From contig NC_087248.1 of assembly GCF_037042905.1 (NCBI RefSeq), positions 2,728,001 through 2,792,000 on the forward strand: a stretch of DNA of 64,000 bases. Direction: 5' to 3'. Positions 16,947-60,700 of this stretch are shown here, one piece after another; within the stretch, counting starts at the first letter, position 1, and the number at the start of each line of letters is the position of its first letter. Origin of the DNA: Lytechinus pictus (lineage: Eukaryota). Under the pieces are notes generated by a model. That model was given only the letters and a program-made list of their open reading frames with translations. It searched no databases and was not told the origin of the DNA. A program made the translations under genes and the position numbers.

Positions 16947-17436
16947 AGGGGAAGTTCACCCTGAAGAAAAGTTGGTTGTAAAAATAGCAGAAAAAAATAA
17001 TAAAAAATATTGGTGAAGGTTTCAGAAAAATCCGTTAAAGATTGAGAAAATTTTATTAGAATTTTAAGTTTTCGATTTGTGACGTCATAAACGAGCAGCT
17101 GCCCTCATTGTTATGTAATATAAAATGCATGAATTTCATTTTTTTAATGGTTCCTGATGACTAATTTTTGTTTTATTTTCATGATCGTGTGTAAAATTAT
17201 TTGTGTATTGATATACAAAAGGTACAGTCAAAGCCATGACATTTCATTGATTTTCTACCATTCGTTATGTAGGAATGCTACTCGCATAAATTATTATGAC
17301 GCCACTAATCAACTAACTGAAATTCTAATAAACTTTTTATTTCTTTGATGGATTTTTCTCAAACCTTCGGCGATATTTTTTATTGTTTTTTCTGCTATTT
17401 CTGCAATATTTGTTTTTGTCAGGGTGAACTTTCCCT
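16947..17436. mobile_element. TTAA-flanked Kolobok/T2-like MITE
   Basis: TTAA|AGGGGAAGTTCACCCTGA...TCAGGGTGAACTTTCCCT|TTAA; family copies at 26603-27086 and a partial at ~47390-47616. Confidence 0.85.
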
Positions 17437-18315
17437 TTAATGTCATTGAATTTCACCGTTCAATGTACTAAAGAACTGCTCATAAACGTATCAGAATGAT
17501 ATACATTATAAGATTCAGGTAATAATCATCAGTCATCATACATTGGTTGTGTACTTTTTTTAAAGGAACCTACCAGGCTACCCTGCATCGGCAGTGGGTA
17601 TTACAGGTATATTGTTCCGTATCGATTTTGAGGATATGAGGGAAAGTATTATTGAAGGGGCCTATTGTATCAAACAATGAACATCGCAGGTAGCAACAAG
17701 ACAATTCTGTTTACACTTCTTAACTACGAGCAGTCTGCCACTCTCTGGTTGGTACAGATAGGCGGATGGGAGGGGGGGTGGGATGTCAATCAAATTAATT
17801 GATCACGAAGTGTTTTTAAAAGATATTTAAAATAAAGGACAGAATGATTTTGTGGTATATTTCCTAATCATGCCATACATAAATCACCGTGCCTTCGACA
17901 TTAAAATAATTCTCTAAAGTTCATCTATGTGACTGTCTCAAAAACAATCTATGTTTGTAGTATGTATATAATATTTCATATAATTTTGATATAGACCCAC
18001 GATATGATGTTTTCCCTTTATTTAATGCACTTTGTATCTTATTGGAAGTCGATTTACGCCTGTAAATGAAATTCGTCATCACTGTTCCTATCATCCATTT
18101 TGAAAGTGTAATATTACTCATGTAATGAAATATTATACGCATGTAAGAACATCAAGTAAACTTAACATGATTCCAAACAAGATAGCGGATTGTAATATAA
18201 ATTTATTATCAAAAGGAAGAACAGGAATAGTTTTATACTTTTAAAGATTGAAGTCAGCAATTTAGCATAATCATGCAGAATTGCAATATTAGTTCGGTTT
18301 CATTTTGCTCTAGAT

Positions 18316-18590
18316 GTTGCTCCCGGCAACAGTATCTATGGGGTTTTATTTGTCTAAACGAACACAGACGACCCCCCCCCCACATGCACCATTCTTCAAA
18401 CAAGACAAGATAACAACAAAACAATCATCGATATTAGATTCGCAACCACTATAATGGCAACCTAACGATGCGAACTTTACAAGCAATACCAACGGCTATA
18501 AAGTGTTCGCTCGAGCTGATCGACTCATCGCCATTGGTCAATTATTTGTTTATGGTCAAGCCGCATAGCAACGGCTAAGGTGTATAAATG
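18316..18590 (+). promoter_or_regulatory. Alpha-tubulin proximal promoter: X-box (RFX) motifs, inverted CCAAT, TATA box
   Basis: GTTGCTCCCGGCAAC 18316-18330; half-sites ATGGCAAC and ATAGCAAC; ATTGG ~18533; TATAAA 18583-18588, ~140 nt upstream of the ATG. Confidence 0.6.
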
Positions 18591-18724
18591 AACGTCGGGG
18601 AGTGAAGTCGCCATATTCAGATTTTGCTCAAGACACATCGCACGTCGAAGGCATTTCGTGAATTTGCGACTTTTAAGTCAATATTTTTTCTTCGTTAAAT
18701 ACTTCATAACTCAAGAACTTCAAG

Positions 18725-20792
<2,068 letters not shown>

Positions 20793-21094
20793 ACAGGTTC
20801 TTACACTCATGACGCTAATCTACATTACGAACTGAAATGACCTATTACTTTCTAGCAATAATGATAAAATATTTGCTCTGAACTCTATATAATTTTGGAC
20901 TTTACCCAGTATCACAGATAAAGAGAAGATCTGTGCCACATTATTTCAAATAAACATGTCTCTGAACATAATATTTTTAAAGAAATACTCATTCCTTCTT
21001 TCCATTATTTTTGCAGCATCACAGGTTAAGATGATGTTTGGTCTGCGGGTGATTATAAAGGAGAATTGTAATAGATGTGATTTCATTGTGATTA

Positions 21095-25180: not shown

Positions 25181-28100
25181 ATGGGTGAGTATATTCACTT
25201 AAATCTGATTTTTGAAAGTAAAATATAGAATTTGCCCGCGACGACAGAGCCTACTCAGTTGTGGCTCATTCACTCTGGAACTCACTCCCCCGTACTGCTT
25301 TTGAAATCTTTCTTCTCTTAATTCATTCAAAGTAGCGCTGAAGTCACAATTTCTAATAACAATAATTAAGTCTGCATTAGTTGACCAGTGCTAAATGTAT
25401 TGAATTAGTCAAGTTGTGAATTTATTGTAAAGCGTTTAGATATTTTTATTAGACGCTATATAAATCATTCTTAATTATTCTTATTTTTCGCCTTCGAAAG
25501 ACAGAAAAAGATGGCGACCAAACTCAAGAATGTTCTTTGCCTTCATGTGCTTTTGGTGTGTGACTTGCATGGATTCTTTACGTATTAACCCTAGCGTCGC
25601 CATCACGGCGATGGCTGTTTCCAATCACGCAAAAGAAAATGTATCACGTGGTCCAAACAACTCTACGCATGCGTGTATCAATGATGGAATCACAGAAGAT
25701 GCGGATGATACGGATATCAAGGTAAAAGAACAAAATATGATCCTCAAACAAACAGCACTAAGCTATATTGATCTAGGATGAATTAAATAAAAAAACATAT
25801 ATTTTGACTCCTTAAGTTGAAGGGTTTTTTTGGAGAAAATATAGGAAAGAGAAAGGAAATATAAATCTATGATGTTTCCTCCTGAGTAGAATTCTTCTCA
25901 TCGTTGTATTCATAGGCCTGCGCTTAATTTTCAATGATTGTTTTCAGATGATATTCCTGATTTTTCCATGACCTAATAATATAATAGTTTGGTACATTCT
26001 TTCTGGTCTTAGAACACCTTTAAGCATGTAAAGTGCAATGCGTTGAATCTTTCAGACCATGCAGAAAGGTGTGAAATTGCATCTGTAGGCCTATATAAAA
26101 CGTGTTTAGTGTGGCATTACTATAAAAGAATAAAGTTGTACTATTTCTTCTCATAGTACATCAATTAAATTATTTTCCTGATTACAGCCTGAATTCATAT
26201 GGAGCAGTCGGACACAAGAGCTTCTTCTTTCCGCGTTCTTCATCGGGCTACCCATAACCCAACTCCCAGGCGGCTGGCTCGCCGATAGAGTTGGCGGGAA
26301 ATGGGTAGTCATGATTGGAGGTGTAGTGACTGCTGTAATGAACATGCTCGTTCCTGTAGCAGCCAGGACAGGAGCTGGGTATTTCTTTGGAGTGAGGCTG
26401 TTGGCTGGACTAGCTGAGGTGAGTCAGGCATACTGATCGATTAACATTGACCATATTCATGATATTAGGATTTTGCAATATGGGGCACGGAGCAGGTATA
26501 CACAGAAAGTTGATCGATTTTGTTTGTCAGTTAACATTACAAGCGAAAAGAAGTAAAGATATCACTCCCTCAATTATTGTCGAAAATGATAATTATCCTT
26601 AAGGGGGAAGTTCACCCTTACAAAAATTTCATTTTAAAAATAGCAGAAAAAATAAGGTCTGAGGAAAATCCATCAAAGAAGAAGAAAGTTATTAGAATTC
26701 GAAGCTTTTTTTTTATATTTGTGCTGTCTTAGACGAGTAGCTACCCCCTATCGTTATGTAATATATGCATAAATTTCAATTTTTTAGTGGTTCATGATGA
26801 CTAAACAAATTATTCTTTCAGGAGCGGGTGTTGAATAATTTGTCTGTTGATATACTATAATAAGTATAATAAAACGCATTTTTTTCCTTTTTTTTTTTTT
26901 TTATAGAAAATGACATTTGATTTCAGTAATTCACATGTGAAGCTGCTCGCATGTGACGTCACAAATGAAAAAAATCTCTTTTTAAATCTTTGATAGATAT
27001 TCCTCGAACCGTCACCAATATGTTTTTATCATTTTTTCTCCGATTTTTACAATAAACTTCAATAAATTTCAGGGTATACTTCCCCTTTACAAATAATCTC
27101 AAAATAAGAATTGAAAAGCAATCGTCACACGACCCCAGATATTAAAAGGAGAAATACTTTTCTTTGGCGTCTTTACCATTAGTATGCATTTCCGTTCTAA
27201 TAGTTGCACACCAACAAAGTAACACAGGGGCATCGCCAGGAAATTTTGATAGGGAGGGGCGGGTGTTTTTTCTTTATTAAATCATAATAATTATTGGGTT
27301 AATATAGCCCATAACTTGTACCCTTCATCCTTCTCTCCTTCCCTTTTCTCATCCTTTCACTACATGAGCAATCATGTGGATGGTTACCCCATGCCCCCCC
27401 CCTTGTCACCGCTCCTTCAGTTAAAACCATTAAATCCTTGTTGTTGTTTTTTAAGGATGTTTTTATTGTATTCTCTCAAATCAAAATAAAACATTCACAT
27501 TCCATAAGCAAGTAGTACAAACTATTTGAAACATGATTATAAATTATACAATAAATCCATAACAAGTATAATTATACATCAAACTTCAAAGATACTGGAA
27601 ATTAATAATGCGTTTCAGCATTTACAAAATGAAATATTAACAAAATGTATGAAATGATAAGAGAAAAAAAAGTCATGTGATCGATATTGTCCTACTGAAC
27701 ATGAAAGAAAATACACTAAACCGCGACAAAACATTTTCACTGGTATGTAGCGAAGTGAGATCATGCTTCACTAGTCGTGCAAACAGTTTCAAAAAACAGT
27801 GATAAACATGAGGGATTCAATTTTGCATAAAACAAAAAATGGAAATACGTCCCAACTGCGTGAGAAATGTATGTAAAGTGTACTTTTGAAATAACTATAA
27901 TCATAACCATGACCCATAACTATTGACTATCAATTATTGTGCGTGGTTGATTGTATTACTGTTTCCTTTTAGGTTCAGGCAAAAGTTACATGGAGAGATC
28001 TGTCTGTCGTAACGGTCGTGTTCAACGAAAAATGTTATAAGCTACTGTGAATCCTTGCTTCTGATTGGCTGGGTGCAGATACGTCAGTAAAAATCACAGA

Positions 28101-31100
28101 CAAACCTCTTTATGAAATGCTTGCCTGGACTGCGGAAATGATGATCCAAGTCAACGTAATCATTTGTGATGTCACGTTGCTGATTAAAGCATGCGGCGAT
28201 GGTGGGGGGGGGGGCTCTTTTTTCATTCAAAAGATGTATTATTTCATTTAATTGAATTTAATTTCATTTTTCACAACAAAAATCTGGACAAGAGAATATT
28301 GACATCAAGACAATGAACAAAATAAATTTATATATAAAACATTAAAATGTATGTATCATACATAAATAAAAAATCTAAGTGGTATTTTCTGTTACACAAT
28401 AAATAAGATGGTTGCAACAAAAGCAAAGCTTGAAAGCGTGACAGCAATGGAGAATAACCAAAATAATTACATCTACTGGAAATAGGAAAAACGGGGGGAG
28501 AAAAACAGAAAGAAAGATTATTATAAATAGATGAATATGTAAGGTATCCTTACGATATCTCAAGGCCAGTATCATAATTATATAATTCGCTATATTTTTG
28601 TAATAATATGATTCAAAGGGCACCGTTGTTCCTGCTATGTTCACGTTACTCGGAAAATGGTCAACAGTCGATACCAACACAAGAATATCATCATTCGCTC
28701 TAGCTGGTAAATATTCTATTTCAAATCAATCTCATACAGCCCGGTGGTTTAGATATGCGTTTACAACTTTCTCTCCTATAGTTTTGATCATAATTTATCC
28801 TTTTCATGTGAAATTCCATGTTACCAAGTGTTTTTATAATTTGAGCAAGTAACTTTGCGAAACTAACTATACAAATTTCTTATTTCAATGTTAAAGATTC
28901 AATTTCATCCATTAATTGCTGTTTTGTTGTATTATGTTTACTGTGTAAATTGCTTCATCATTGTTTGATGGCAAGTGTAATTTACTCAAATTTGTATAAT
29001 ATACACTGTAAAAACTGTGGTGTTAAAACTGACACCAATTGGTGTTAATAGAGGACCACACCCTGAGGTGTTAAAATAACACCCTAGAGATTGAACATAA
29101 CACCAAAGAGTGTAAATGTTACAACCTTATGGTGTTGTAATAACACCTTTAGGTGTAAAACTAACACCACCAATTTAACATCGGTGTAAAATAACTGATG
29201 TGGTCCTCTATGTACACCGGTTAACACCACAGTTTTTGCTGTGTACAAGAAGTGAAACAATCCGTCCCAACATGATTCATGCTTAATAATATTGATTATT
29301 TTTGCTGGGATATAGGAAAAATCAATTGTTTCCTTTTCCTCGACACATCAGATAATTATGTTCCGCTCTGGAACTCTGCAAATGAAATGAAATAGTTTCC
29401 GTTGAAGTAGTATGTCGTGCTCGTTGCCGACGTTCACACAATGACTGCCGAATTCTCATAATAACCATCAACTTTACGTTTTCAATTGCCCGTATTCTAA
29501 AGTCAGGTTTAACTCAACCTCAGGTTTAAAGTTGTTGTTTAAGTATGGACAGCCAATTGTTACATAAATCACTAATGGTAGAGATATCATATTTCAGCTC
29601 ATTTGGCTCTCAAATCATTCATAATTGTCTAGGAAATATAAATAGATTATTGTCTTCACCTTCGATGAATCAGGAAAGAGCACAGTAAACATAAGAAACG
29701 TACAACTTGATAAAAAAATTTGATACTTTTGGCTTCCCATACTTAAACCACAACTTTAAACTTGAGTTTAAGTTAAACCTGACTTCAGAATACGGGCCTA
29801 TTGGTTTAATAGTATAATATCCAGTGATCATCGAACTGATCGCGTTGTGATAACACGAGACTAGAGCCAGAGATTATGAAGTAGTTTTCTTAACCACCAC
29901 GCACACACTTTTTTGAACGTAAACAATCTATTTTTAAAAGTTCTCAGTCTTTGTCGAAAATCGGTGAATCAAAACAGCGGGGACTGTGTATAGAAAACGA
30001 CATATTTGCCATTTTTCGTCCGCTCCGAATCTTACGACGAAGTGCTGTTCCGGTTCACTAATTTTCGACAAAGACCTCTTAGCTGCTCATTGCGATTTGA
30101 CAGGTATTTTCAATAGATTTACTATGTTTTCGAGTCCGTCCCCGTTGCAATTGCGAAAACATGATATTATCTTATGGCTCGAACTCTGGCTCGACATATG
30201 ATAAAAGGTTTTTGAGCTGCTGTAGGCCTGCAGCAATATTAATATACATCATCTATGATCATTTGCGGCGGAAGCCAAAAAAATTAGGGGGGTCCACCTG
30301 AAATTTTGGGATGGACACAGGTAAAAAATTGGACAAGCAAAAAAAAAAAAGAAAGGTTATCAACAGATAATTTAGGGGGGGGGGGGTCCGTCCCCCACCT
30401 CAAATTTAGGAGGGGAGAAATGACTCCCCCCCCCGCTTCCGTCGCCTATATCTATATATGTTCAGTGCCCCGTGACACAAAGCGTAGCGATCGATCGTAG
30501 CGCCGATTTTTACGGTTGTTTACATTAAATATTAATGCAATAAATCGTAGAAACGATCAATCGCTAAGGTTTGTGGCACGGGGCACTGATGAAAGATGAC
30601 GTACACTGTTAGAAAATGTATCCTTGAAATAAAAGAAGTTCCTGCAGTCTCGAGAACACCTGTAATCTTACCAGATTGCGTAATCTTACAGTAAATTCGT
30701 ATTTGGTGTATGGAACCTTTAAAATTTCCTATAATAAAACACCCTTTTCCCCTTTTTAAACAGACCTGTTCTGTTAAATTGCAGAAAAAAATCCTGTTTT
30801 ATGAATTTACAGAATTATTCTGTTATTGCTTTCTGCAAAATCTTATTTTTTCTGTAATATCACGTTTTTTTAACAGTGTATGATTGGTGTAGCAGCTCAA
30901 AGAGTTTGATCATACAGGACTCAGATCATCAACGAAGGTCTGGTGAAGCTTGTAGGATCGTCAACGAAAACTTGGAAATCAACTTGAAAAGGAAAAAAAA
31001 ATCGATGATTTTGACAAAAGAACTCATCATTTTGTAATTCTCAATTTTCAGGTGCTCCATTCGGATTGGCTGTAGGTCAAACTCTATCTGGTTTGATATG

Positions 31101-34100
31101 CTCAACCCCCTGGCTTGGATGGCCGTTCTCATTCTATATCTTAGGTATGATATAAATGTTAAGATGAACATATCAATTAATGATTGCCAACAATCCAGCA
31201 GAAAATATAGATTTATTTTTGATGTCTCATGCGAGAACCCCCCCCCCCTATTATGTCACTTTACATGAATTCCATGAGTTGACATTATCTCTGTCTTTTG
31301 CTTTTAACATTATGTGAAATGTTATTTAATTATTAATAACTTAAAGGGGATTGAACTGTGTGTGGTCTCTCATTGACTGTGTGTTATAAATACATAGTCT
31401 TAAAATATACGTTTTCAGATATCTACTAATACTATATACAGAGAATAAATTGACCTATAATTGTATTTGTAAAGAGAAACAACTAAAATGTTTTGAGAGG
31501 AAAAGTAATTATTTTGCTACTTGGTAACATAATTATTGCGGTACAAATGTATTGAGTAGTTAATTAGCATGTTATCATTCAAGTGGGTCTATATTACTAG
31601 ACTACACTAGCATTATGGGTCAGGAAACTGGCCAGGTATGAGTAGTTGAGGACTCGAGATGGCGCAATTGGTTCGTATCTGCTTTAAGAGTGGGAATTCA
31701 TGGAATTTATATCACGACTCAGTCAGTCCGCAAGCCCTGAAAAAGTAGCTTCTTTTATCAAAGTGATATTCATGACTAGAGGGTTTTTGCATAGTTAATG
31801 AGCTTGGTGCGAACCAAAACATCTCTCTTTATTCGGCCATTGCTGCTCTAAATATTGACCAAATTTCATGTTTTTGATATCTTTGTGAAGAAGAAGAATA
31901 ATTCTTTCAGGTCATGTGTTTGGATTTTTAAAAGAATGTTGTAATATAGGAAAAACTTTTGATCTAAAACATGAAACAAAATATTTTTTTCATGCAACAA
32001 AAGTTATTGTTTTCACACTTAATTTCTGTTTGGGCACAAATGATTTTTAGATCATGATAAAGCTGAAGATCTAAGCTTTAATATGATATAATTTTTTTAA
32101 GAAGATGTATTTTAGATGGGTCAGCCAGCTTTTCATAGGCCAAGTACATTTTGCAGCTCAAAAACAAGAATACTGCGCTCTGATTGGTCATATAGACCAC
32201 ACACCCACGCAAATTCCAATGTTCCCCACACTGGGCCTCTGCAAGGTCACACTCACCATGTGGTAATCTCTTCAAATTACCCGCGCCTGTTTGTTTTGAA
32301 AACAGTATTCAGCCAATTTCAGAAATCTCGTTTTGCATCTTGATGGAAAAAGCTGGCTGCTGACCCATCTAAAAGATGCCACATATCAAGAGTGACATTG
32401 TAAGAAAGTATAGAGTTTGAGCTTTCTGATGATATAAATAATGTTGGTGCCTAAAACACAAAGTGTTGCATAATTTGCAAGTGAAAACAGAGGAAGAAAA
32501 TTCTGTTTGATGCATCTTTTCAGGTAAAAAATTCACTTATTTATCATATTTCATTCAAAAGAAATGATCAATATAAAAGGGTAACATTAACTCTTGCCCA
32601 TGGTAAAAAAATAATCAATATTACTCAAGGAGAAAGTGGTTAAATTCTTTGAGAAAGAAAGTCTCACAATTCACGAGATTTTGCAGGGACATGAATTCAG
32701 CCACGAGAGGACTTGGATAAATCTTGCGGACTGACTGGACTATACTCGCATGTGTTGTTGTCACTCAATCAAAACAGTACAAACTCACGATATACTGGAC
32801 TTTTCTGGGGTTTTTTAATACCAATTGTGGTCAGGGTGGACTCCCCTTTTGATAGGAGTGTATATACTTGTCAAATAAAATGGAATAGGTCTTGTCAATT
32901 GGATGATGTTCAGAAATAAATTTCTGAGTAAAATGAAATGTTCTATTTCAATAGAATGAAAAGTTCAAATTCAATTTCATTCAACGGGGTACTGCACCAT
33001 AATACTTTTACTTTTTTTACCCCCCTGGTCCGCGCCTGGGAATGAATCTTGTAACTAAATAATGTGTTTGGAGTTCAGTACCCTTTTTAGACACGCTGAA
33101 ATTTCCTTAACCCCGTACTATATAGGTGGGGCTAAATTGCCATTTAGCCCCACCTATAGTACGGGGTTAAGCTTAGCCCACTTTCTTTTTACACAGCATT
33201 TTTGCAAAGTGGGTTAACCCCATCTTTAGTACGGGATTATTTGGCCCTGCAAAAAAAGCAGGGTTATTCCAGCAATTGCGGTGCTAAGAGCGATAGTACG
33301 GGGTTAAGATCGCTAGTGTAAAACGAAAGTGGGCTAAGCTTAACCCCGTACTATAGGTGGGGCTAAATGGCAATTTAGCCCCACCTATAGTACGGGGTAA
33401 AGGAAATTTTAGCGTGTGTAAAAAGGGTACGAGTGAATGAGCTACCACTAGTCCGGGGTTAGCGAGTTTCGTGTGTGAAAAGCAAGCATTCCTTATCCGG
33501 GGTTAGCAATAACAATTTGGCATGTGTGAAAAGGAAAAAAAATAGTACGGGGTTAAGGATAGTACGGGGTTAAGAAAATTCTGTGTAAAAAGGGTAAAAG
33601 TAATAAAGTGGTGACGATGCCGGTGATAATGGTCGTGATGAAGACGGGGTGATGATAATGATGGTGGCGATGATGGTGCTATAGTGATGCTGCTACTGCT
33701 GATGATTATGATTTATGTTGGTGGTGCTGGTGGTGATGCTGTAGTGGTAGTGATGCTAATGATGATGATTATGATGGTGATTATATAAAGATGATAATGA
33801 TACCATAATAATGATTTGATGATAATGATGGCAATAGTGGCATTGAATATGAAAATGTTAAACAAAAGTTCAGACTAATACAACCATCAAATGCACCAAA
33901 TGATCCCAAACACTTGATTTGTTTTGTGGTGTACAGGTTCAAACGCCCTTGTTTGGGCAATATGTTGGGGGCTCTTCATCAAAGAAAAACCTGATGAAGA
34001 TACACCGGCTTCGAGTGAAGATGTATCTCACAATGATGACCTACAACAAACACAGGAAAATAATTCGAAGAAGGTTAGTTATTCTGAGAGCAGGTTTCTA

Positions 34101-42400: not shown

Positions 42401-45400
42401 CAACAGTTGCAACTCTTTATGAAACGGACCCCTGATTTTTTACCACTGAGCCACCACATCTATACGTCACTGTATGCTTTTTTATCAGTAAAGAAACAAG
42501 GTCTATCCAACACAAAGTCAAATAACTTTTTTTTAAAGATGACAAAATTATGTAATAAATTGAATTTCTAAATGTTGACGAAGGTTTGTTTAACGTAAAA
42601 TTCTTACCAAATTAGAACAACAACAAAAATCACCTTTTTAATCTGACTGTCCTTTTCGCTCTCTTTCTTTTCTGACTGGCCTTCAACCTCTAAATTTTCC
42701 TTCGTTTCAATCGGACTCTCTCGTATTATAAGAACCCATAGGATGGCCCAAGTAAGATAACTGGAACCTAAAACAGATGAAAACATTTTACAATTGAAAT
42801 AAGTAATGGTGGTAAATACATAAGTTTCGTTTTAAAGGTTGTCGACATTTAAATAAAATACAAATTTAGTTAATCCTCATCATTTCATTTACTGCATTAG
42901 AAGGCTGTCTTCATAAGATAGTAACGTCCATACAATGTTCCTGTATTCGGCAATTATAATATTATGATTTATCTAAACACAGCGCTACTAGCAGTTTGAG
43001 GGTACTGTCATTCTTTCATTCGGCAATTAAATAAATATACTTTAAACAAAACGTGATTTTCGATATGGCTGTCATGCAAAAAGAATATAGAGAATATTTC
43101 AATGAAATGAATTCGATAAAAGGTGATGATTTACTATACCTAAGATGTAGAATGAGAAAGGCCATCCAAGCTGAGGGGTAGAGCAGATAAAACCTGATAC
43201 AATTTGTCCTATCGCCAGCCCAAATGGATTACCTGAAACATAAAAATAAATCGATTGTTTCCAACTTAATGATGGAGAGAATAATATTGATAGAAATGTG
43301 CGCCACATTGAGCAATATATACAGTCATTACAGTGCATTGGTAACTGAAATAGAAAGTTTAGATTATCAGTTTGAATATGTCTCTTGTTTTATTGAACTA
43401 TTCATGTACCTCCTTATCACACTGTGTGTTCATAGCGAGAAATACGACGAGTGAATTACAGTTTCACGTGGTGGGGCGTATAAACCGACACTGTGTAGTC
43501 AAATATAAGACTGTGGTTACTTACGATATGATCTTCACACGGATAATGACTAATAATAGTCGAATATGCAAACAATGTGAACACACTATTGGACACTGTG
43601 GACATATGCAAATACACACTCAACATACCGCGGGAAATTTTGAAGCTACTATGAACACACTGTGGACATTGTTGTGGCCCCACTCTGGGACCACACTGGG
43701 TGTACATGATGGGTTACTGTGAATACGCTGATGATATATAGACTGTGAACACACTGGGAACACACCACACTCTTTGAACACGTGTTGTGATCACTTTGAA
43801 CTTATTGCAGGAAAGTGTGAAGACACTATGCATACACTGTGAACGTTATTGTGGACACACTGGCACACACTATGGGATACGAGGAAAGCACTACAAAACA
43901 GACGGTTGTACATTGTTAACACAACATACTGAACACATTGAAGGTCACTGTGAACATGTAAAACACTGGGGGCACAAGAAAGGACAATGTAAACACATTG
44001 TGAATACACACTTTGAACACACTGGAAACACACGATGTAACATTGTGAAGATACTATAAAGGCGCATTGAAGACACCTCAAACACACTTTAGGACTGTTC
44101 ATACACCCACCTGCCATTGCAAACGATGTGACTCTAGTCTTGGTCTTGTTCGTAGTCCAGTTACTGATCAGTGTGAACATGGCTGGTACTACAGCACCCT
44201 TGAAAGGAGAAAGAGACAGAAAGTAAGAATGTGTTTGAGTGTGTGTGTGGGGGGTGGGGGTGTGTGAGAGAGAGGGGGCAAAATATCAAAATGTTGAGGG
44301 GAAAAAAAGAGAGCTCCCTTTTCCTGACTTAAATTTGTTCTACTTTTATAATTCAGTATTTTTATATATCTTTATTAATTCATTACTTATTGCTTACATT
44401 ATTTTCATTTAAAAAATCTATTTCCAACTTTTTTCATGACTATGATTATCTTTCTTATTATATATTCATTCATTAATATATTTTGATGGGGTCTGTTTAT
44501 CATTAGGCCTATTAAAACAAAAAAATATGAGCACTAAAACTTCCCGCCATATAAGCGTGTATAAATAGATCCAACATCATCAGTCATTGTGTCTATCAAT
44601 GTGATTTTTATGTCATTATTCACAAATTATTGTTTTCAAGTTTTCGTGCCATCCTTACCTCGAAAATCCCAGCTAATAACCTGACTACGAAGAAATATGA
44701 TGCTCCTGTTCGGGCCGCTACTGGTACAAGCATGTTCATAATGGCAGTCATCGCAGCTCCGGTCGCTACTACCCACTTCCCGCCTACTCTGTCGGCGATC
44801 CACCCGCCTGGGAGTTGGGTTATGGGTAGCCCGATGAAGAATGCAGAGAGGAGAAGCTCTTGTGTTCGACTACTCCAAGAAAACTCAGGCTGGACAAAAG
44901 AAAGTTTGATATTTTTTTTAATTAATCTTCGGCTATATATTGGTATCATAGTGGATCTGGGGTTATCAAACTCACAGGTTAGGGAAATAAAATGAATACG
45001 GAGTGGGGGGGGGGGGTAGCGGGAATGAGGAGGCCTGGGGAGCATTTCATGTAAGGAATTATGTTTTATCTCACAAGTCTTATTTTATCCGGCAGTTACC
45101 ACAGTAGCAGTGCTTCGCACCCATTCAAAATTATAGAAAGTTGTCAGATCTAACGATCGGATGACAAATGTTGATAAAACTCTCCACGGGTATAGAGCAA
45201 AATGCTGACTTCGAAGAGAGCATACTAACCGTAATATCATCAGTGTGATTTCCTTCTACGTCTTCATTTCGGTTCAAACAGCCGTGATTGGTCGCATTGT
45301 GGTCACGTGTCGAGTTGCTTGAACCGTGATTGGATGCTGCCATAGCAGTGATGGCAACACTCGGGTTGATACGGAGTGTGTTAAAATTAGCTACTCCCAA

Positions 45401-50033: not shown

Positions 50034-51654
50034 TTAAAGCAAGGAGTTCTGAGAATTCTTGGTTAAAAGTAATAAGAAGATATAGTTACGGATAGTGAGT
50101 TATAACATGGACCTGTCGAACCCGAAAGAGGGCGGTAATACCAGACAAAGATAATGAGTATCACTCCATGAGCTATATAGCCATCGGAATTCGACTGTGC
50201 ACAAAGCAGGTGATCAATAAAAAGATGATTTTCTTTATCATTAACACCAACATCGCTGTTAATATCGTTTGTATTGTTTTTGTTGTTGTAAAAATAACGA
50301 TTTTCAAACCAAGATATTTTTTTGTCAAATCCGTGATATTGAATTTTTAAAAGAAAGTCATAGGTACCAAATCAAATTCAAACCTCTTTTATAGTATTAC
50401 AATTCTGACAGATGACCCACTGACGTACAGAATCGGGATAATGGAAAAGAAAATGAGAAGAAAAAATTATTAAATATTATATTATGTCTAATTTTATCAC
50501 ACCCTTTTTTATATTTTAAAAAGGCCAAAATATTGACTCGCTTGCGAAGATATTTTTACACACATGCCATATTGTGCCCTCTTATTAGTATTACGCCACT
50601 GCAAAGAACTGACAAGTTTGATTACATGAATGCTCAGATATACTGAGCCTCAAGCCTAATATTACCTTTCATGCATTCAACCCTGTCGGACTTGACATCA
50701 ACCAGACTTAATTTTGCAGAAGTGCCTGCCGATCTCCGAACAGCGGAGGAACTGAAACGAGAGAGAGAGAGAGGGGGGGGGGGGGGGGAGAGATACCTGG
50801 GGCGTTTAATCAACATTTTCGTCCGACAAGTTGTCAAATCTGACAACTTTTCGTGGTTTTGATTGGCTGAGAAGCACTGTTACTTTGGTAAATGGTAACT
50901 GTCGGATAAAATAGAACTTGTCGGATGAAACAAGTCCTTTCGTGATAAGCTTCCCCGGGTTTAATGTGAAGGGACGCTGAAAATAAATTGTCATCAAAGT
51001 TCAATGCATCAGCAACAAAGGCCGATTATCGTTCGTTCGACTGGAAACATTTGTAAAGAAATCATCACAATATCATGATAAGTGTGATAATCACGGCCCT
51101 CGCGGTTAGAAGTTGTTGTTGTATAATGGACCCCACATAGTAGGTCCATGGTTGTATTGATAGTATTACCCGTGAGTGGTAGTGTAGCAATGAACTGGAA
51201 GTAGTATCACAAAGGGTACAGTTCATTGACCGGTTTCATGGGCTATCCTGTCAAGGTATTACTATATATTTTATTTGTACCTGTTTGCTGTTTCTGACTG
51301 TTTCTGTTATACCTCGCCAAAATCAAAATCAATCACCAAGGTCGGTTCGAGGTTTAACCGTCATTACTCTACAAGCGCTTTCAAATCTGATATGATTGAA
51401 ACTAACAATTATCAAAATATTCATCGAAGGATAGAGTTTGGCGGACTGCTTCCATGTACACCGAAATTTGCGCGCGTGTCTTGCGATCACTGGGATCGGT
51501 ACATTGATCAGTTGATGTTTTATACGTTTTAAGAGGTCATAGTCATCCTGCTGTTATCAACCTGAGCCGGTCAATGATGCAGCCTTCATAGAGGAAGGAG
51601 GACGTTTGAATTCGACTGGAACAAGAAACAGACGCAGAGGCGATTTCAGTAATC

Positions 51655-54600
51655 ATGGGTAAGTCCACATACAGCCGGGACTACAGCATATCAGGGGAAC
51701 CGATTCATAATAGGACTTGACGAATGTTTATATTCGAAAAGTTTATTTCATCAAACAGGCCTACCATTGTAGTATTGGATTGACACTTCTCAGCCAGTAA
51801 ACATGGTCAAAGTCAAAGAAAGTCGTTAGATCTGACAATTTGAAGAACGGAAAATGTTGGTGAAAAAAAGACCCCTATTGTGCGACGTTATACTAATAAA
51901 TGAATTCTTCCGATTTAAATTAATGTCGTGATCCTAAAAAGGTGAATTTCCAAAATGTAATTATAAATCTCATGAAAACGATGATGGGAGCGCGAAGTGT
52001 GAGCTGAATTATTTGTAAATCCTAACCTGAAAATTTTATGCTTTAAGGATTAGGGCCGGTTGTAGGAAGTTATGAACATGATATGTGTCTCACAAAGAAA
52101 AGTGCGAACACAGAGCTCGAGCCAATTTTTTTTTCCTGACCTGAAAACGGGACCATTTAAGCACATTCTTTAATAGTGAATAGCGTGCACATCTCATCAA
52201 GAATATATATTGTGAGCGCGAAGCTCGAGCTAGCTGTTCAAAACCTATTTTTGAGTATTGACTTGACAACATTTCATCAATTTTTTAATTGTAAATATGA
52301 ATACGATACGTCTCCCACTATTCATGCGAGCGCGGAGATCGAGGTGAAATTCAAATCAATACACTGACCTGGAAACGTTAAGGGTGGAAGTGTAGAAAGA
52401 ATTCAAACCCCTTTTGCCTAGCATGCATTATGGACTAAGGGAGGGAGAAGGGCTTTCCTTCATTATATTCACTTTAAGTATACAATATTCTAAAAAATGC
52501 AAAGTTAATGACTTTACTTCTTAATCAAGCATGATACGTTGTTTAGTAGGCCTATACATGATAAAATTGTAATATTGATTTGAATGAAAATTAATGATAA
52601 GCTGACATAATATAACACGGCCAGTCATTTTTGCTAAAATGAATGTTTGCTATTGACTGGTATTAATGACTTGTTCTATATATAGTTTTGAGATGAGGAG
52701 GTTTATCAAATAACAAGGATCCAAATCAATTTTAAGAATATTAAACGTATTATACACATCATTCTGCTTGGGCATTATAAAAATTACACATACTTTTTAT
52801 ACCTTTGAAACATTCATCACGCCCTCTCGGCTGTAACTCAGAAGTGTTCCAAAGATACCACATGCGTGTATAATGTCATCGATGATGTTATTATTAGCAT
52901 GATTAGTTTGTATGTTTTTTATCAAAATGTTTTACTCTATACATGTATTATACTGTTTTTTTTCTTCAAATGTCCTATGTTTCAGCTTTAAAAATCTGTT
53001 ATCCAAACTCGAGGATACTTTTCGCTCTGATGTGTTTCGTAGGACTCGCTGGCATTAACACACTCCGTATCAATCCGAGCGTCGCCATCACCGCTATGGC
53101 AGCATCCATTCACGGCCAAAGAAACTCGACACGTGACCACGATGTGACCAATGATGGTTGTTGGAAACGAGATAAAGCGTTCCAAGGAAACTACACGGAT
53201 GATATTAAAGTTAGTATACTCTCTTCGTATTCAGCATTTTGATATACCCCACCCCCTTCTCCCTCACCGCCCCTCCTCTCATAGCCGTTCACCCCACCCT
53301 TTCCCTCCTCTCGCTCCCCGCTCCCGATCCTCTTCTCTCCCTCTGACATGCTGGTGATGCTGGTTTTGAGCCCGTTAGTTGTCTATTTTGAATGTTCCAA
53401 TTAATGTTCACTGATATAAAAAAAATTCAGTTGTATAAACACCCATCATCTGGATTTTGTATGCACGCTGACTACTTCAATAATTGCTCATTGCCACGAG
53501 TTGAATTGGCCAATTAAACTTTATATGTTATTTTATGAGATGCTTTATTCACTTAATGATTTCCTATATATTCTTGAATAAAAAGGAAGGTATGAAAACA
53601 GGAAATCTTTAATATTACTCTCAACCTTTGTCTTTCCTTCTGTCTACCTAATGGTTTCCTTAAGGCCCTGTATAATGTATTGCGATTTAATGCCGTTCCG
53701 TTAATATCATTGATGATAATCTGCACGGAACTTGTCTAATGTGGTTCTCAGATATTGAGTCTCCTTTCACTTAAAATCCAAGTCAAATTTGAAAGAAAAT
53801 AGTGAAGAGTCCATGTCACTTTCTCTGATGGAAAATCATAATTATGATTAATCCAAACTTAAAATCTGATATCAAATCTAAACTTAGGCCTACCCTATCA
53901 TACCATGCTATTCTTGACCAAAAGCTCAATCACAACTTTACTCTTTTTCTCCTCAGAAATTGAGCCGGGCATTTACCGCAGGAAAAAAAATTATGTGGTC
54001 CCACAGTATAATCCATTATCCATTACCCCCTGTTATGTTCTTTTTAATCATTTCATCTCCCGAAATTAAGACAATTTCATCCACAATTATAAGTGGCAGA
54101 TTCGGGGGAGGGGAGTGCCCGAGGAAAATGTGATGTAACATAAGAAGACAAGAAAAAAAAAGTGTGAAAACCAGTTTTTGATGTTCGTGGGATTTGATTT
54201 GAGTGAAATTATTTGATGAAAAAGTGGGACTTCCCCGAAGAAAACCTTGAGATCTGATAGATCTGCAAACGTGAATGAATACAAAACCAACATAAATGAA
54301 GCCTAAGGATAACGTTCCAGCAGCCTTATAACTGTAATCATCATTTTTTTTTTGTCCAGCCTGAATTTTCTTGGAGTAGTCGAACACAAGAGCTTCTCCT
54401 CTCTGCATTCTTCATCGGGCTACCAATAACCCAACTCCCAGGCGGCTGGCTCGCCGATAGAGTAGGCGGGAAATGGGTAGTAGCGACCGGAGCTGCGATG
54501 ACTGCCATTATGAACATGCTTGCACCACTAGCGGCCCGAACAGGAGCATCCTATTTCTTCACTGTGAGGTTATTAGCTGGATTATGCGAGGTAAAAGAGA

Positions 54601-56549
54601 AAGAAAATGTTTCCATAAGCTAAAAGTTATGATTTTTGGAATAATAATAAACCAAAAACGCACCATAATTATAAAATTTTTAAAAGTAGAACAAATTGAA
54701 ATTAAGACAAACATTTAATTCTCTCATTCTCTTTTTTCACCTCTGTCTCACATTCTCACCCTCTGTCTCTTTCTCCTTTCAAGGGTGCTGTAGTACCAGC
54801 CATGTTCACACTGATCAGTAACTGGACTACAAACAAGACCAAGACTAGAGTCACATCGTTTGCAATGGCAGGTGGGTGTATGAATAGGAAACTTGATGAG
54901 TTGAGTTGATTGAGCTGATTTACCTTTTTTTCTTAAATTCCACATTAACTTCTCTTTGAAATCAAAGGTCATCATTTAGCAAGAAGCAATTTTCTATAAT
55001 CGCAACGGGACACACTATCATGATTGTATTTTAAGGGGGGTTTTGCAGTGTGTTCAATGTGTTCACAGTGTGTTTGTTGTGTGTTCTCACTGTGTGTTCA
55101 ATGTGTTCACAGTGTGTTTGTTGTGTGTTCACATTGTGTGTTCACAGTGTGTTTGTTGTGTGTTCACACTGTGTGTTCACAGTGTGTTTGTTGTGTGTTC
55201 ACACTATGTGTTCAATGTGTCCACAGTGTGTTTGTTGTTCGGTCAGACTGTGTGTTCAATGTGTTCACAGTGTGTTTATTGTGTGTTTACACTGTGTGTT
55301 CAATGTGTTCACAGTGTGTTTGTTGTGTGTTCACACTGTGTGTTCAATGTGTTCATAGTGTGTTTATTGTGTGTTCAAACTGTGTTCAATGTGACCACAG
55401 TGTGTTTGTTGTGTGTTCACATTTTTGGTAGCATATTCAGTGTGTTCACAATAAATTTATAGTGTGTTTAAGGTCTAGCACAGTATGTTCTGTTAATGAA
55501 AATGTGTTTATAGTGTCATCACAATATCACACATATTATGTCCAATGTATTCCCAGTGTATTGTCTCAGTGTCTCAAGGTACGGTGTTAAAATTTTGTTT
55601 ATAATGTTATCACGGTGTCCTACAGTGTGATCAGTGTGCTCATAGTGTGTTAATAGTATCATCACAGTATCCCAAAGTATGTTCTGTTTATTCATAGTGC
55701 GTTCATCAGTGGCGTAGACAGGTTCGTACACCTGGGGGGGGGATGACTGGGCTGCCAACGCTAGTGAGGGCGCGAAGCGCCCGAGCGAGAGAGCGAAGCG
55801 ACCGAGCGGGGGAGGGTGTGGGAGGTGGGTGTCCCCCCTCCCACGGTAGGGAGCTTTTGCAATTTTGAACTTGAAATCGTGCAATCTGATGCATACTTAA
55901 TGAGGTAAAATAACACACACAAGCGCGCACGCACATACACACATACTCACACACACCCCCCCCCCACACACACACACACACCCTCACACACACACGGGTG
56001 CGCGCAACACACACATACTACGCCTTGAATGGACAGACATACATCGACAAGATCTACACACCGTGGCATACGAATACAGAATGGACTGACACATAGTATT
56101 GCATATTGAACCACACTACGTATTTATTTATCTCTGTAAATTTTGCTGTTACACCTCTTCAGAAAAAAAAACCAATGTCAACTGTGTACACGCAGGTATA
56201 GTCTTTGTTGTCTTGATATGGGTATGTGGTTATGAATGAAAACAGCCTCTGTGGCCATTTGTGAATAGAACACATAAACAACAAACAAATAACAATATGT
56301 CTGTTCATTATAAAGCATAATAAATACGTACATACTATGCTTTTTTTTACCTCAAAGAAACAGGCATAGTATCCATACATGGATATTGGCTGGCGGCTCA
56401 TTAACATACAGATACAAAAAACATAAACAATATCACTATGATCCATGGAGTAACAATACTGCTTTGTAAGTTTGTGAAGAAATCGGAACCATAACGGCAT
56501 TGCATCGTTTCAAATTAGGGCATTATTTACTTCTATTTGATCTCAGTCT

Positions 56550-56599
<50 letters not shown>

Positions 56600-57681
56600 A
56601 CAGGTCTACAACAAATTGGGATGGTCTGGAATATGGAAGCAACGAACCTCGCCAACTACCTATCCAATCCACCTGATATACTGACGAGTATATCCCTCGA
56701 TTATGATAAATGTCAAGCAATATACTCCATTATTCAAGCAAGCATCTATCTTATTGGCACAACATCGACTGACACTACCCTACGGTGAAAAAGAGAAGGC
56801 AAGACTTAAATGCTCCTTTCACAAGAAACTTCAAGAGCAACTTAAATCCAAGCGACTTCATGGCCACCATGAAAAACAGACGCATCGGGAGTTCGTAGAC
56901 CAGAAAGACACCCATCAATGGCTTAAGTCGGCGGGACTAAGAGGTGAAACTGAAGGGTTCGTCTATGCTATTCAGGACCAGGTGGTGAGGACCCGTGCCT
57001 ACGAAAAATCTATCCTCAGAACAGACACAGACGACACTTGCAGGATGTGTGGAAAAGAGACCGAAACAATCATGCATTTGGTATCAGCATGTTCGACTCT
57101 TGCTGGAACTGAGTACATCACAAGACATGACAATATTGCCAAACTTATCCATTGGCAACTACTGAAGGATCGCGGTAAAATGACTTGTGATCACGCTTGG
57201 GAACATCAGCCACAAACGATCACCACGATCAATAACAGCACCATATATTGGAACTGTGGCATACTAACGGATAGAACCATCAACTGCAACAAGCCAGACA
57301 TCATCGTCAGAGACAACAACGTAGTAAATATCATTGAGGTCTCTGTTCCCCACGATATCAACATTGCTGTAAAGGAAAGAGACAAACGGCTCAAGTATCA
57401 AGACCTAAGGATTGAGATCGAGAGGATGTGGAACGTGAAAGCAGAGGTCACACCAGTCATCATTGGTCACTCAGGAATTGTGAAGAAGGGAATGGAAGCC
57501 TGCATAACCAAGATCTCTCCTCACCTTCGGATGTACGACATTCAGAAGGCAGCTATCTTGGGTACAACCAGATTGATAAGAAAGACTCTCGGACATTAGT
57601 AGTGTAAAGTTCCTAGTTGCACTTGAAATTACTTGGTGCTTTTTGTTAGAGCAAAAAATACGGACTTGATCCTGTTTAGAG

Positions 57682-57713
<32 letters not shown>

Positions 57714-60700
57714 TTAATAATAATACAAATAAAAAATAATACTAATACAAATAATAATGCTAATACTAATAGGTTCCTTTTATCTCGCATTTCAAGACAG
57801 GGTAAATTCACACTGCGCTTTACATGAAACAAACTTCTTTAAACATTTCAAACTTATGTCTTCATGCATCAATCAACATACTTTAAACGAATACAAAACA
57901 AAGTGCATCTTAAATAAAACAAAAATGAATAAATAGTTAACAATACAGAAAAGATGTAGCTGCTGCAAGCTTAACAACAAACTAATGTATACCAGTCAGT
58001 CCTGATATCAGTATTAGTGTAACAATAGTCATATAGTGGGAGCATGAAGTTGAACAATTCATGATTATACATAATTATATATGTTTGTTTGAATAATACT
58101 TGTTATAAAGATAGTAGTATGGTACTCTCTGTCACGAATTATTATGTATACTGTTGTATCACATTCATTTTCTATTCTGTTTTAGATTGCGCTGATGCAT
58201 TTTGCACACAATGTATAATGCCGAATACACGAGTGGGCCAGACCACACATGTATTTCAATAAAAACCGACTTGAGAAAATAACGTGTATATAAATATATA
58301 ATAAAAAAATAAATAAATGCATATAATGTATATATATATGTATAAATATCATATACCTGTAATATAATCTGATATAAACTAATAAATAAATAAATAAATA
58401 TAATACATATCATATATGAGAAGGTATTGCTAGTACTCGGTTCGTGCCTGAAAAGTAGTCTCGATGAAAAGAAAAAAGTTGTTGCTTCATTCCCATACCA
58501 AAAACAGCTTGATTAACAGTTGCTAATCAGATAATAGAGAAATCCGCATCCCTGATTTTCAATAGCTTCTTTCACACGTTAAAAGCCAATCTTGTGGTTA
58601 TCTTGTGGTTATCTTGTGGTTTACAATCTTAGAGGTATCTTGTGGTTATCTTGTGGTTTGCCCCATTTGAACACGCAAAACTCGTGGTTATCTTTTGGTT
58701 TCCACACCACGAGATTGCGCACACTGCAAAATATGCGCGATTAATCTTGTGGTTATCTTGTGGTTTCCAAACCACAAGATAACCACAGAATACTTGTAAG
58801 ATTTTCTTTTTTTACCGTCTGAATTGGCTTTCACCGTGTGAATGCAGCTAATAACAATAAACACAATTACAATAATGATGATTATTATTATTATCATCAC
58901 CATAATTATTATTATTATTAATATTATAATTGTTATCATTATTATTATTACTATTTATTATTATCATCATTATGACTTATTAAGTAACCAAATATCATTC
59001 CCCAAAACCTGGGGGGATGATTGTACATGCCATCCCCCCCACCTTGTGATGTGGGGGGGGGATGCATCCCCCTCATCCCCCCCGTTGTCTACGCCCCTGG
59101 CGTTCATCCTTTTTGTTTATTTCCACTTCGTCTAATGCTAATTCGTCCAATAGCCAACTCACCTACTATCATTTGGTCTTCCATCAGTTTGTCCAATATC
59201 CACATGGTCTAATTGCCTATTCGTCCACTCACCACTTCGTCTAATAACCAGCTTGTCCAATAGCCATTTTAGTCTATGTACCATTTGGTCTAATTGGACT
59301 AAGTGTTAATTGGGCGAACTGAAGGAAAATGAAATGGATATTAGACCAACTGGTTATGAGACGAAAACATGGTCATAGACGAAATTGTCATTAGACGAAG
59401 TGATGATTGGACCAAATGGTCATTGGACCAAATGGTTGTTAAACAAAAATGTTGATAGACGGAATGGCATTAGACAAAATGAAAGTAGGCAATGTGGTAA
59501 GTGGACGAATTGGCAATTTACCATCATTTGTATTCAACAGTGTGAATGTGGACACTTCTGCAGCGTATTTTACCACATAATGATGAGAGTGACATTGACA
59601 GAATCTCATATCTCACTGCCATGCTCACCAATGCCGCATTTTCTATCATTTTCTCCATATTTATGGAGTCGATTCAAACCATTCTTTGGTTTTGTTTCAG
59701 GTTGTCCATTTGGACTTGCGATAGGACAAATTGTATCTGGTTTTATCTGCTCAACCCCTCAGCTTGGATGGCCTTTCTCATTCTACATCTTAGGTATTGT
59801 AATGAGCAACTTTTATATCGTAATCCTTCGCTTCTATTGTTTTCGGCATTGGACATTTTTTGATATACACGGTAAAATGAGCGTAATTTATACAGGAAAT
59901 CTGCATAAACCATGGACTCAACCCTGGGTTTTCATCAAAATGCCAATGACGTGTACAGATGATTAACCGATCGTTACTATCTTATGAAGACAGCATTTCA
60001 TTGCAATCTACAGAAAACCTTGTCAACTTAATTTTCTTGTTAATCTGTACATATTTTAAATATATCTACACTTTGTGAAATAAATTTTATATCTACCACA
60101 TTTCTCATTTTTATGTGTTCATGCATTTTTTTTATATAGATTCCATCTATCTAACTTGGGCTATCCTATGGGCTGTTATTGTACGAGAAAGTCCGATAGA
60201 AACAGAAGAAAATTACCAGAATGTACCCCTGTCAGATAAACAGGAATATGAAAAGAGAAACCAGATTAAAAAGGTGACTTCCCCCCCCCCCCCTAACAAT
60301 GCCAGAACTATACGTTTATGTATTCATGTACCTTAACCAAATCTAAAAATGTGATTATGATAACCTATTTTTGGTCATTTAATTGATTTTATTTTGCTTT
60401 ATCTTTGGATCGAACTTTTTTTTCGGAGGAAGCAAATATCTATGCAAGATACAGTGATTATAACTAATGGATCTATCCACTGCAGATGCAAAAGAAAAGC
60501 AGTCATACGGTTGATAGATATTGAGAATCATTGGTATTATATTAAGCCATTTTTTTTTCTTCGCTTTTCAAGTCTCGCGCAACTGTACCAGTTCGTGACC
60601 TGCTGACGTCACTTCCTGTATATTCATTTATTCTGATCCGGTTTGGTATCCAAGGTTGGGTTGTAGGAACTCTTCTTACCAATCTACCTATCTACATGAA

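What the first reader, a model, noticed from the sequence alone, without database searches (positions are those of the whole stretch)
55699..59107. Three-layer nested transposon: a 3.4-kb hAT-type shell carrying a site-specific retrotransposon and a MITE inside an SLC17 intron
Seen: 13-bp TIRs (CAGTGGCGTAGAC / GTCTACGCCCCTG, 1 mismatch) 3.4 kb apart with an exact 8-bp duplication GCGTTCAT on both sides. The interior holds (CA)n, unique sequence, an R4/Dong-like insertion, a Harbinger-like MITE and (ATT)n, but no transposase. The homologous intron of paralogue 2 (43233-44110) is only ~0.9 kb and lacks it. Known: 8-bp TSD plus CAG..CTG ends is typical of hAT. Inference: a large non-autonomous carrier whose internal TAA tract is a landing pad, so it could ferry a target-specific LINE to new loci by cut-and-paste.
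Basis: partly seen in the sequence, partly recalled or inferred. Interest (0 to 1): 0.7.

Follow-up and report, generated by a model that had tools for sequence, protein, structure and literature searches.

The report
Species-hopping transposon with retrotransposon landing site
This is a gutted copy of a sea-urchin cut-and-paste jumping gene with over a hundred copies, whose TAA repeat holds retrotransposons in about one copy in eleven, likely from separate landings and with no sign of being carried along, and whose parent likely moved recently between sea-urchin species and possibly into a sea louse.

Summary
TIRs, 8-bp TSD and the Dong-like insert are real. The shell is not unique. It is an internal-deletion derivative of a 5.1-kb hAT parent in the same genome (L133), in a family of at least 110 complete copies (96 with perfect TSDs). 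The 'unique' interior is the parent's 3' trailer, and the 'MITE' is also in the parent, so this copy has two layers, not three. The landing pad holds: 10 of 114 shell TAA tracts carry Dong-like LINEs of two families. Ferrying is not seen: all 11 inserts have different 5' junctions, and 77 of 84 family-A copies lie outside shells. Unexpected result: the parent transposase is 94-100% identical to proteins labelled Caligus rogercresseyi (a copepod) and 98.5% to one labelled Strongylocentrotus purpuratus. Its non-coding DNA is about 99% identical in runs whose match to a host GPCR exon is only about 83%. Recent horizontal transfer is likely; contamination of the copepod assembly is not excluded. 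This scan noted Dong stacks and nested hATs on other DNA of this genome; its look-ups returned nothing on this family or its transfer.

The parts
55699..55706 (+). left 8-bp target-site duplication GCGTTCAT
   Evidence: family-wide 96 of 110 perfect TSDs
55707..59099 (-). non-autonomous hAT copy: parent L133 bases ~1-1676 plus ~4638-5101; the ~2.96-kb transposase region is deleted. Strand given is that of the parent's transposase
55707..55719 (+). 13-bp TIR (end downstream of the parent's transposase)
55913..55995 (.). (CA)n tract, also present in the parent
56551..56598 (+). (TAA)n target tract, left part
56602..57682 (+). 5'-truncated Dong-like (R4-type) non-LTR retrotransposon, family A: end of RT region, CCHC knuckle, restriction-like endonuclease, 3' UTR; frameshifted near 56734, 14-bp deletion in the 3' UTR
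57683..57771 (+). (TAA)n tail and degenerate right part of the target tract
57772..58540 (-). parent's 3' trailer, up to the deletion
58530..58551 (.). deletion junction private to this copy (1 match in the genome at up to 1 mismatch)
58564..58850 (.). MITE-like hairpin (27-bp arms, 23 of 27 match, AAT on both sides); part of the parent's promoter-side end
58881..58982 (.). degenerate (ATT)n tract, also in the parent
59087..59099 (-). 13-bp TIR (promoter-side end of the parent)
59100..59107 (+). right 8-bp target-site duplication
54872..59700 (+). host intron of an MFS transporter gene (flanking exons about 54784-54871 and 59701-59793)
   Evidence: splice sites read from the sequence

Best explanation
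The element is an internally deleted, non-coding copy of a 5.1-kb hAT transposon found elsewhere in this genome; it was likely moved into this intron by that family's transposase acting in trans, and a TAA-targeting Dong-like retrotransposon likely landed in its TAA tract on its own, as in nine other copies, without being carried to new sites. Shown: the parent, the deletion series, TSDs, LINE junctions and copy counts. Inferred: the order shell first, then LINE (from divergences and unique junctions); trans-mobilisation (established hAT biology, Ac/Ds type); insertion by target-primed reverse transcription (established for RLE-type LINEs). The family likely entered this lineage recently by horizontal transfer: about 0.85 among sea urchins, about 0.65 that the copepod copies are real. 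That would explain its young burst (median 0.6% from the majority base).
For: Parent L133: 5101 bp, same TIRs, perfect TSD, three-exon transposase with DUF4371 (E 3.8e-23) and Dimer_Tnp_hAT (E 2.6e-9). Derivatives map as simple deletions of it. 96 of 110 complete copies have perfect TSDs, with T at position 2 and A at position 7 in 45 of 96 each, like the Hermes nTnnnnAn preference (PMC10368747, passage). TAA census: 112 sites, 97 plainly empty, 8 with a LINE, 7 with deletions or a MITE, plus 2 more LINE-bearing shells from the LINE-side census. All 11 inserts have different 5' junctions and sit in several deletion subfamilies. Pairwise substitutions among five family-A shells: shell 0.83-1.51%, LINE 0.35-0.74%. 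77 of 84 exact-pattern family-A copies lie outside shells. Transfer: five Caligus-labelled proteins on five contigs are 94-100% identical, and an S. purpuratus-labelled protein 98.5% over 340 aa. They sit in one starred clade (100/99) with the parent. Contigs of runs X2 and X3 match the non-coding interior at 13 of 1501 and 14 of 1531 differences (summed by hand). The host GPCR exon beside copy L067 differs at 144 of 822 (X2), 171 of 971 (X3) and 164 of 974 (X12) (summed by hand). X2 and X3 contigs carry a 15-bp insert (also as loose ends in X12) found in none of the G000 loci then in hand, which argues against DNA of this genome in those runs.
Against: Five of 7 in-shell family-A copies belong to one LINE sublineage that makes up only 17 of 84 copies (Fisher p 0.003, post hoc). 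Timing may explain this, but a link between that lineage and the shell is not excluded. The census covers one assembly, exact or near-exact patterns, and 30 of 168 family-B candidates from the LINE side. The only complete parent has an in-frame stop, so the active helper was not found. The copepod evidence is protein-only. The GPCR match in the runs may be a paralogue, and the run organisms are coded. The second S. purpuratus protein is only 86-93% identical in pieces.
Confidence: 0.85

Rival explanations
1. One reading: a LINE lands once in a shell, and the composite then moves by cut-and-paste and seeds new loci; later deletions trim the LINE or remove it between the flanking TAA runs.
For: Composites of 1.9-8.5 kb keep both ends, several with perfect TSDs, and the parent itself is 5.1 kb. 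L074 and L075 show that a shell can move with a 578-bp passenger. L081 and L105 share a MITE near one site in one subfamily. Five in-shell family-A LINEs share diagnostic SNPs.
Against: None of 11 inserts share a junction. The window's LINE and shell deletion are single-copy. L061, L119 and L126 share deletion breakpoints with empty sisters. The shared SNPs also mark 12 free LINE copies, and two in-shell copies carry the other allele. LINEs are younger than their shells. The longest passenger (L061) is 5'-truncated and frameshifted.
Confidence: 0.08
2. The LINE specifically favours the shell (Tx1L/Tx1D-like targeting), for example because a source copy sits in a shell and its read-through RNA pairs with other shells.
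For: Occupancy is 10 of 114 (8.8%); two LINE families insert in the same orientation just upstream of the same shell sequence; one sublineage is enriched (p 0.003).
Against: 92% of family-A copies are outside shells, and those shown end in TAA runs. Background occupancy is roughly 1-11%: about 250-320 LINE copies or candidates over 2,900-21,000 long tracts, extrapolated from 5 tracts in 451 kb. Enrichment is therefore not established. L119's right flank is of its own subfamily's type, not copied from a donor.
Confidence: 0.12
3. The cross-species identity is not transfer: the copepod proteins come from contamination, and the sea-urchin similarity reflects vertical descent or mixed samples.
For: The Caligus assembly paper reports filtering only for bacterial contamination in the passages read (PMC7878743). 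Caligus DNA was not seen. The run organisms are coded.
Against: Five Caligus proteins lie on five contigs of 14-36 Mb, and two share an internal gap absent from the sea-urchin proteins. Non-coding DNA at about 99% beside a host exon at about 83% does not fit vertical descent. The closest L. variegatus protein found is only 78% identical.
Confidence: 0.2

Closest known systems
hAT superfamily: Hermes and Ac/Ds-type deletion derivatives; ZMYM1-like (DUF4371) transposases
   Same: 8-bp TSD with an nTnnnnAn lean, short TIRs, unlike subterminal ends, hAT dimerisation domain, and a series of internal deletions. The four best PDB sequence hits are all Hermes, though weak (E 0.047-0.064).
   Different: A distinct family: the next relatives found are 73-78% and about 50% identical. 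It carries a long pure TAA tract in its 3' trailer. Repbase and Dfam could not be checked, so a consensus may already be named there.
Dong and Dong-like R4-clade retrotransposons (Bombyx Dong, DongAg, DongBg, Darwinula Dong1/2)
   Same: RT, CCHC knuckle and restriction-like endonuclease, (TAA)n target, 5' truncation (PMC3812793 and PMC7998251, passages). Best solved relatives are R2 proteins (E 1.7e-26).
   Different: Nearest database proteins are 76-78% (unnamed) and then about 35-47% identical. Placement in the R4 clade was not tested by a tree.
Xenopus Tx1L inserted in the non-autonomous DNA transposon Tx1D
   Same: A target-specific LINE found inside a non-autonomous DNA transposon (PMC6719617 and PMC4494074, passages).
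   Different: Tx1L targets the transposon's own sequence. Here the target is a generic microsatellite and 77 of 84 copies are elsewhere. The primary Tx1 papers were not held; that Tx1 composites were proposed to move as units is recalled.
Horizontally transferred hATs such as hAT-6_XT in turtles, fishes and a frog
   Same: A near-identical hAT in distant aquatic animals (PMC11008031, abstract). hAT-like elements make up 29.93% of 5,952 transfers in a screen of 247 animals (bioRxiv 10.1101/2024.12.18.629015, passages).
   Different: This case joins echinoids and a parasitic copepod. That screen's main text has no 'echinoderm', 'sea urchin', 'copepod' or 'Caligus'; its supplements were not seen.

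Membership tests
hAT DNA transposons | 8-bp target-site duplication | tested here: met
   96 of 110 complete copies perfect
hAT DNA transposons | short terminal inverted repeats | tested here: met
   13 bp, 1 mismatch; the same ends in the parent
hAT DNA transposons | transposase with C-terminal hAT dimerisation domain | tested here: met
   in parent L133, not in the window copy: PF05699 37.2 bits against cutoff 21.4
hAT DNA transposons | DDE triad with CxxH and W motifs | tested here: met
   P0123 has D286, D352, C380xxH383, W450, E694; the W and E stretches align with Hermes; the roles of these residues are recalled
hAT DNA transposons | demonstrated cut-and-paste activity | not testable with these tools
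   indirect only: identical copies L074 and L075 with different TSDs; the parent copy has an in-frame stop
R4/Dong non-LTR retrotransposons | RT followed by CCHC knuckle and restriction-like endonuclease | tested here: met
   RVT_1 E 1.8e-29 in L118; CxxC..H..C, RHD and PD..E motifs read in the window ORF (motif names recalled); best PDB hits R2
R4/Dong non-LTR retrotransposons | insertion into (TAA)n | tested here: met
   3' ends run into AAT repeats in the family-A copies and the family-B copies
R4/Dong non-LTR retrotransposons | RT phylogeny groups with Dong/R4 | not tested
   no named reference proteins were fetched
PIF/Harbinger MITE (58564-58850) | terminal inverted repeats | tested here: met
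   27-bp arms, 23 match (sequence shown)
PIF/Harbinger MITE (58564-58850) | 3-bp TWA target duplication (rule recalled) | tested here: not met
   the flanking repeat is AAT; the TAA/TTA register does not match on both sides
PIF/Harbinger MITE (58564-58850) | independent copies with their own flanks | tested here: inconclusive
   154 of 155 hits in held loci lie by a shell end, and the other is inside shell L098; the 10 unknown pattern sites fetched were all shells; the held loci are shell-biased
Tx1L/Tx1D-type composite | LINE targets the DNA transposon specifically | tested here: not met
   7 of 84 family-A copies in shells
Tx1L/Tx1D-type composite | composite multiplies as a unit | tested here: not met
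   no shared 5' junction among 11 inserts in 10 shells
Horizontally transferred transposon | identity far above that of host genes | tested here: met
   about 99% non-coding against about 83% for a GPCR exon in coded runs (one control gene, orthology unproven); 94-100% aa to copepod-labelled proteins
Horizontally transferred transposon | patchy distribution | tested here: inconclusive
   best L. variegatus protein found is 78%, but no genome of it was searched
Horizontally transferred transposon | contamination excluded (recipient flanks, TSDs, reads) | not testable with these tools

The most novel reading that the evidence does not exclude
A hAT that has recently crossed between sea-urchin genera and into a parasitic copepod has a built-in TAA landing pad that collects resident Dong retrotransposons. 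It could act as a DNA vector that moves target-specific LINEs to new loci and even across species. The cross-phylum transfer alone I put at about 0.65; LINE carriage was not seen in 10 loaded copies.
Probability: 0.07. Interest if true: 0.8.

Novelty: new member of a known kind. Interest (0 to 1): 0.4.

Why it matters
The nest itself is ordinary: a microsatellite inside a multiplying DNA transposon creates over a hundred new targets for a microsatellite-specific LINE. The family does give a countable test of the old idea that composites spread LINEs, and the answer here is 0 of 10 so far. The likely recent transfer of an almost unchanged hAT between sea urchins and a salmon-parasitic copepod would add an echinoderm-arthropod link. 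Echinoderms were not among the phyla of the large transfer screen I read passages of. It also points to a transposase that works in very different animals.

Tried and rejected
Empty-site test in population reads: not achieved. None of the four runs laid covered the host flank at 55430-55574 or the exon end at 59635-59760. Contigs show presence only, so the lack of cover of the flank, and of the LINE in X2 (partial in X3 and X12), is not used as evidence. Run X1 holds the LINE at 6 differences in about 1069 bases but gave no cover of the GPCR exon; it may be low-depth DNA of a close relative and was not used. The junction-spanning DNA query split at the TAA run and only listed empty shells. The paralogue intron was rejected as an empty site (loose alignment). 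LINE transfer across species: no near-identical protein among the 120 listed (best 76-78%). A named host-gene control failed: the GPCR's only hit is unnamed, 71% aa. L064 and L066 as a ferried pair was rejected: different junctions and different alleles at a diagnostic site. Literature: searches listed no paper whose title or abstract start describes this family or an echinoid-Caligus transfer. The library omits most subscription journals, Repbase and Dfam, and no supplements were read, so this is weak. No structure or complex prediction was run.
Full report
Observation. The ends are as described: 13-bp TIRs with one mismatch at 55707-55719 and 59087-59099, and GCGTTCAT on both sides. The interior holds (CA)n, a TAA tract split by a LINE fragment of about 1.08 kb, a hairpin and an ATT tract. 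The LINE fragment encodes the end of an RT region, a CCHC knuckle and a restriction-like endonuclease (motif names recalled). The element lies in an intron (about 54872-59700) of an MFS transporter gene; the SLC17 label was not tested. The paralogue's intron is 878 bp and has no match to the shell, but it aligns only loosely.

The shell is a family. The left end gave 740 first-look candidates, the right end 467 and the 'unique' interior 195; 40 were scored in each search. Among all loci fetched, 110 copies have both ends. They are 0.8-8.5 kb long (median 1.9 kb), and 96 have a perfect 8-bp TSD, with T at position 2 and A at position 7 in 45 of 96 each. Hermes prefers nTnnnnAn (PMC10368747, passage). 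In a 490-bp interior segment, 102 copies differ from the majority base by a median of 0.61%, so the burst is young.

The parent. Copy L070 held a transposase fragment. A search with it gave 11 places. One of them, L133 (G000:C2, 5101 bp, perfect TSD), is complete. It carries a three-exon gene on the strand opposite to the window's plus strand, with DUF4371 and the hAT dimerisation domain. It has one in-frame stop in exon 3; database protein P0128 of the same family reads through that region. A database protein labelled Lytechinus pictus is identical to exon 1 over 420 aa, so the host is a sea urchin, most likely that species. All copies map as internal deletions of L133 in recurring subfamilies; the window copy is parent 1-1676 plus 4638-5101, and its junction is single-copy. 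The 'unique' interior is thus the parent's 3' trailer. The hairpin lies between the parent's TIR and its promoter region. It may be an old MITE (23 of 27 arm match, AAT on both sides), but no free copy was found and its flank is not TWA. This copy has two layers.

Landing pad. An exact 21-mer beside the TAA tract occurs 109 times, of which 100 were listed. With extra sites from other searches I examined 112 tracts: 97 empty, 8 with a LINE, 2 with a MITE just right of the tract and 5 cut by deletions. A few of the 112 may be segmental duplicates (L096/L097, L149/L150). A LINE-side census of all 84 exact-pattern copies of family A found 7 in shells, two of them new. That gives 10 of 114 loaded shells with 11 inserts: family A in the window, L061, L118, L119, L126, L217 and L237; family B in L064, L065, L066 and L126. 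From the family-B side only 30 of 168 candidates were fetched, and 2 were in shells already known. Whether 8.8% exceeds background is open: 5 long tracts in 451 kb of flank extrapolate to 2,900-21,000 genome-wide, or roughly 1-11% occupancy. TAA targeting is the known habit of Dong elements (PMC3812793 and PMC7998251, passages).

Ferrying. No two inserts share a 5' junction. The closest pair (window and L217, about 8 nt apart) differ in LINE allele and in shell subfamily, and several free copies break in the same zone. The best other matches to the window's LINE are 98% identical and start at base 4 of the query. Among five family-A shells, the shells differ by 0.83-1.51% and their LINEs by 0.35-0.74% (pairs are not independent), as expected if the LINEs came later. 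Against my reading: 5 of 7 in-shell A copies belong to a sublineage that is 17 of 84 overall (p 0.003, post hoc). The other lineage includes older copies of 92-97% identity, so timing is the simplest cause, but this was not modelled. Carriage is mechanically open: L074 and L075 are identical over 2748 bp, share a 578-bp insert and have different TSDs and flanks. The longest in-shell LINE (L061, 6.3 kb) is 5'-truncated and frameshifted.

Horizontal transfer. The top protein hit of the parent's exon 1 is labelled Caligus rogercresseyi, 384 of 394 identical, including the acidic N-terminus. Its 15-member cluster has 5 Caligus proteins on 5 contigs, 2 labelled S. purpuratus, 3 labelled L. pictus and 5 unnamed. 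Identities to the parent are 94-100% for Caligus and 98.5% over 340 aa for one S. purpuratus protein; the other is 86-93% in pieces, and the best L. variegatus protein is 78%. In a tree of 20 selected proteins these form one clade (100/99), with other echinoderm families outside; direction was not tested. In coded runs X2 and X3 the non-coding interior differs from the window at 13 of 1501 and 14 of 1531 bases. A 1.6-kb host GPCR exon beside copy L067 differs at 144 of 822, 171 of 971 and 164 of 974 bases in X2, X3 and X12; all sums were made by hand from the listed pieces. X2 and X3 carry a 15-bp insert absent from the G000 loci then held. Limits: one control gene of unproven orthology, coded organisms, and no Caligus DNA. 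The Caligus genome paper mentions bacterial filtering only, in the passages read (PMC7878743). Transfer of hATs is common: 29.93% of 5,952 events in a 247-genome screen whose main text does not mention echinoderms or copepods (bioRxiv 10.1101/2024.12.18.629015, passages; supplements not seen); see also hAT-6_XT (PMC11008031, abstract). My searches (listings only) showed no report of this case. The LINE has no near-identical protein among the 120 listed.

Mechanism and verdict. A hAT likely arrived by transfer and multiplied. Deletions, likely from interrupted gap repair (established for Ac/Ds and P elements; recalled), made non-coding derivatives that kept both ends and a TAA tract. Resident Dong-like LINEs then likely hit those tracts one by one. 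It resembles Tx1L in Tx1D (PMC6719617 and PMC4494074, passages) but fails the tests of shell-specific targeting and of spread as a unit. PMC4640811 (passages) was read for background only. Earlier notes of this scan describe similar Dong stacks and nested hATs elsewhere in this genome; look-ups by sequence and words found nothing on this family or its transfer. New member of known kinds; interest 0.4, carried mainly by the transfer.

Noticed in passing
L061:1365-6281 (G000:C13): The long family-A ORF has an N-terminal module (acidic spacer plus a W-containing helical motif) repeated three times before the RT; possibly the Myb/SANT-like domain described for Dong.
   Followed up: no
L062:4665-9901 and L063 (G000:C3:26.52-26.54 Mb): A near full-length family-A LINE (1085-aa frame, then 737-aa and 722-aa frames cut by the locus boundary) sits about 1.4 kb from an empty shell.
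   Followed up: partly
L035/L036/L048/L050 (C16:24.79-24.80 Mb); L192/L193/L202/L206 (C3:77.82 Mb); L224: Head-to-tail arrays of Dong-like copies, each in the TAA tail of the previous one; some are tandem duplicates.
   Followed up: no
family-A LINE about 1.1 kb from its 3' end (window, L041, L217, L256, L257, L259): A cluster of 5' truncation points within about 20 nt, a possible stall site for reverse transcription.
   Followed up: no
L081, L105 and sisters L027, L073, L083, L098, L100, L108, L113: A MITE beginning TACCC sits just right of the TAA tract in two copies of one subfamily; sisters show short variant scars at that spot, like excision footprints.
   Followed up: partly
window 59120-59530: A second inverted-repeat element starts just right of the shell's TSD; high depth in run X1 suggests a high-copy repeat.
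   Followed up: no
window 55046-55421: A 44-bp TG-rich minisatellite; a degenerate version is in the paralogue's intron.
   Followed up: partly
window 26329-31145 (+), 43139-44748 (-), 54501-59794 (+): Three close MFS transporter paralogues, the middle one inverted.
   Followed up: partly
window 4544-7507: An endonuclease-plus-RT LINE open frame, broken by a stop after 756 aa.
   Followed up: no
window 19590-20792: A tubulin open frame of 400 aa.
   Followed up: no
window 15482 (+) and 50591-50601 (-): Other CAGTGGCGTA-type ends, probably unrelated small hAT-like elements.
   Followed up: no
run X3, record 29: A 2907-nt contig starts at the window's deletion junction and runs on, probably through the transposase, at depth close to the shell interior; that organism may hold mostly full-length copies.
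   Followed up: no
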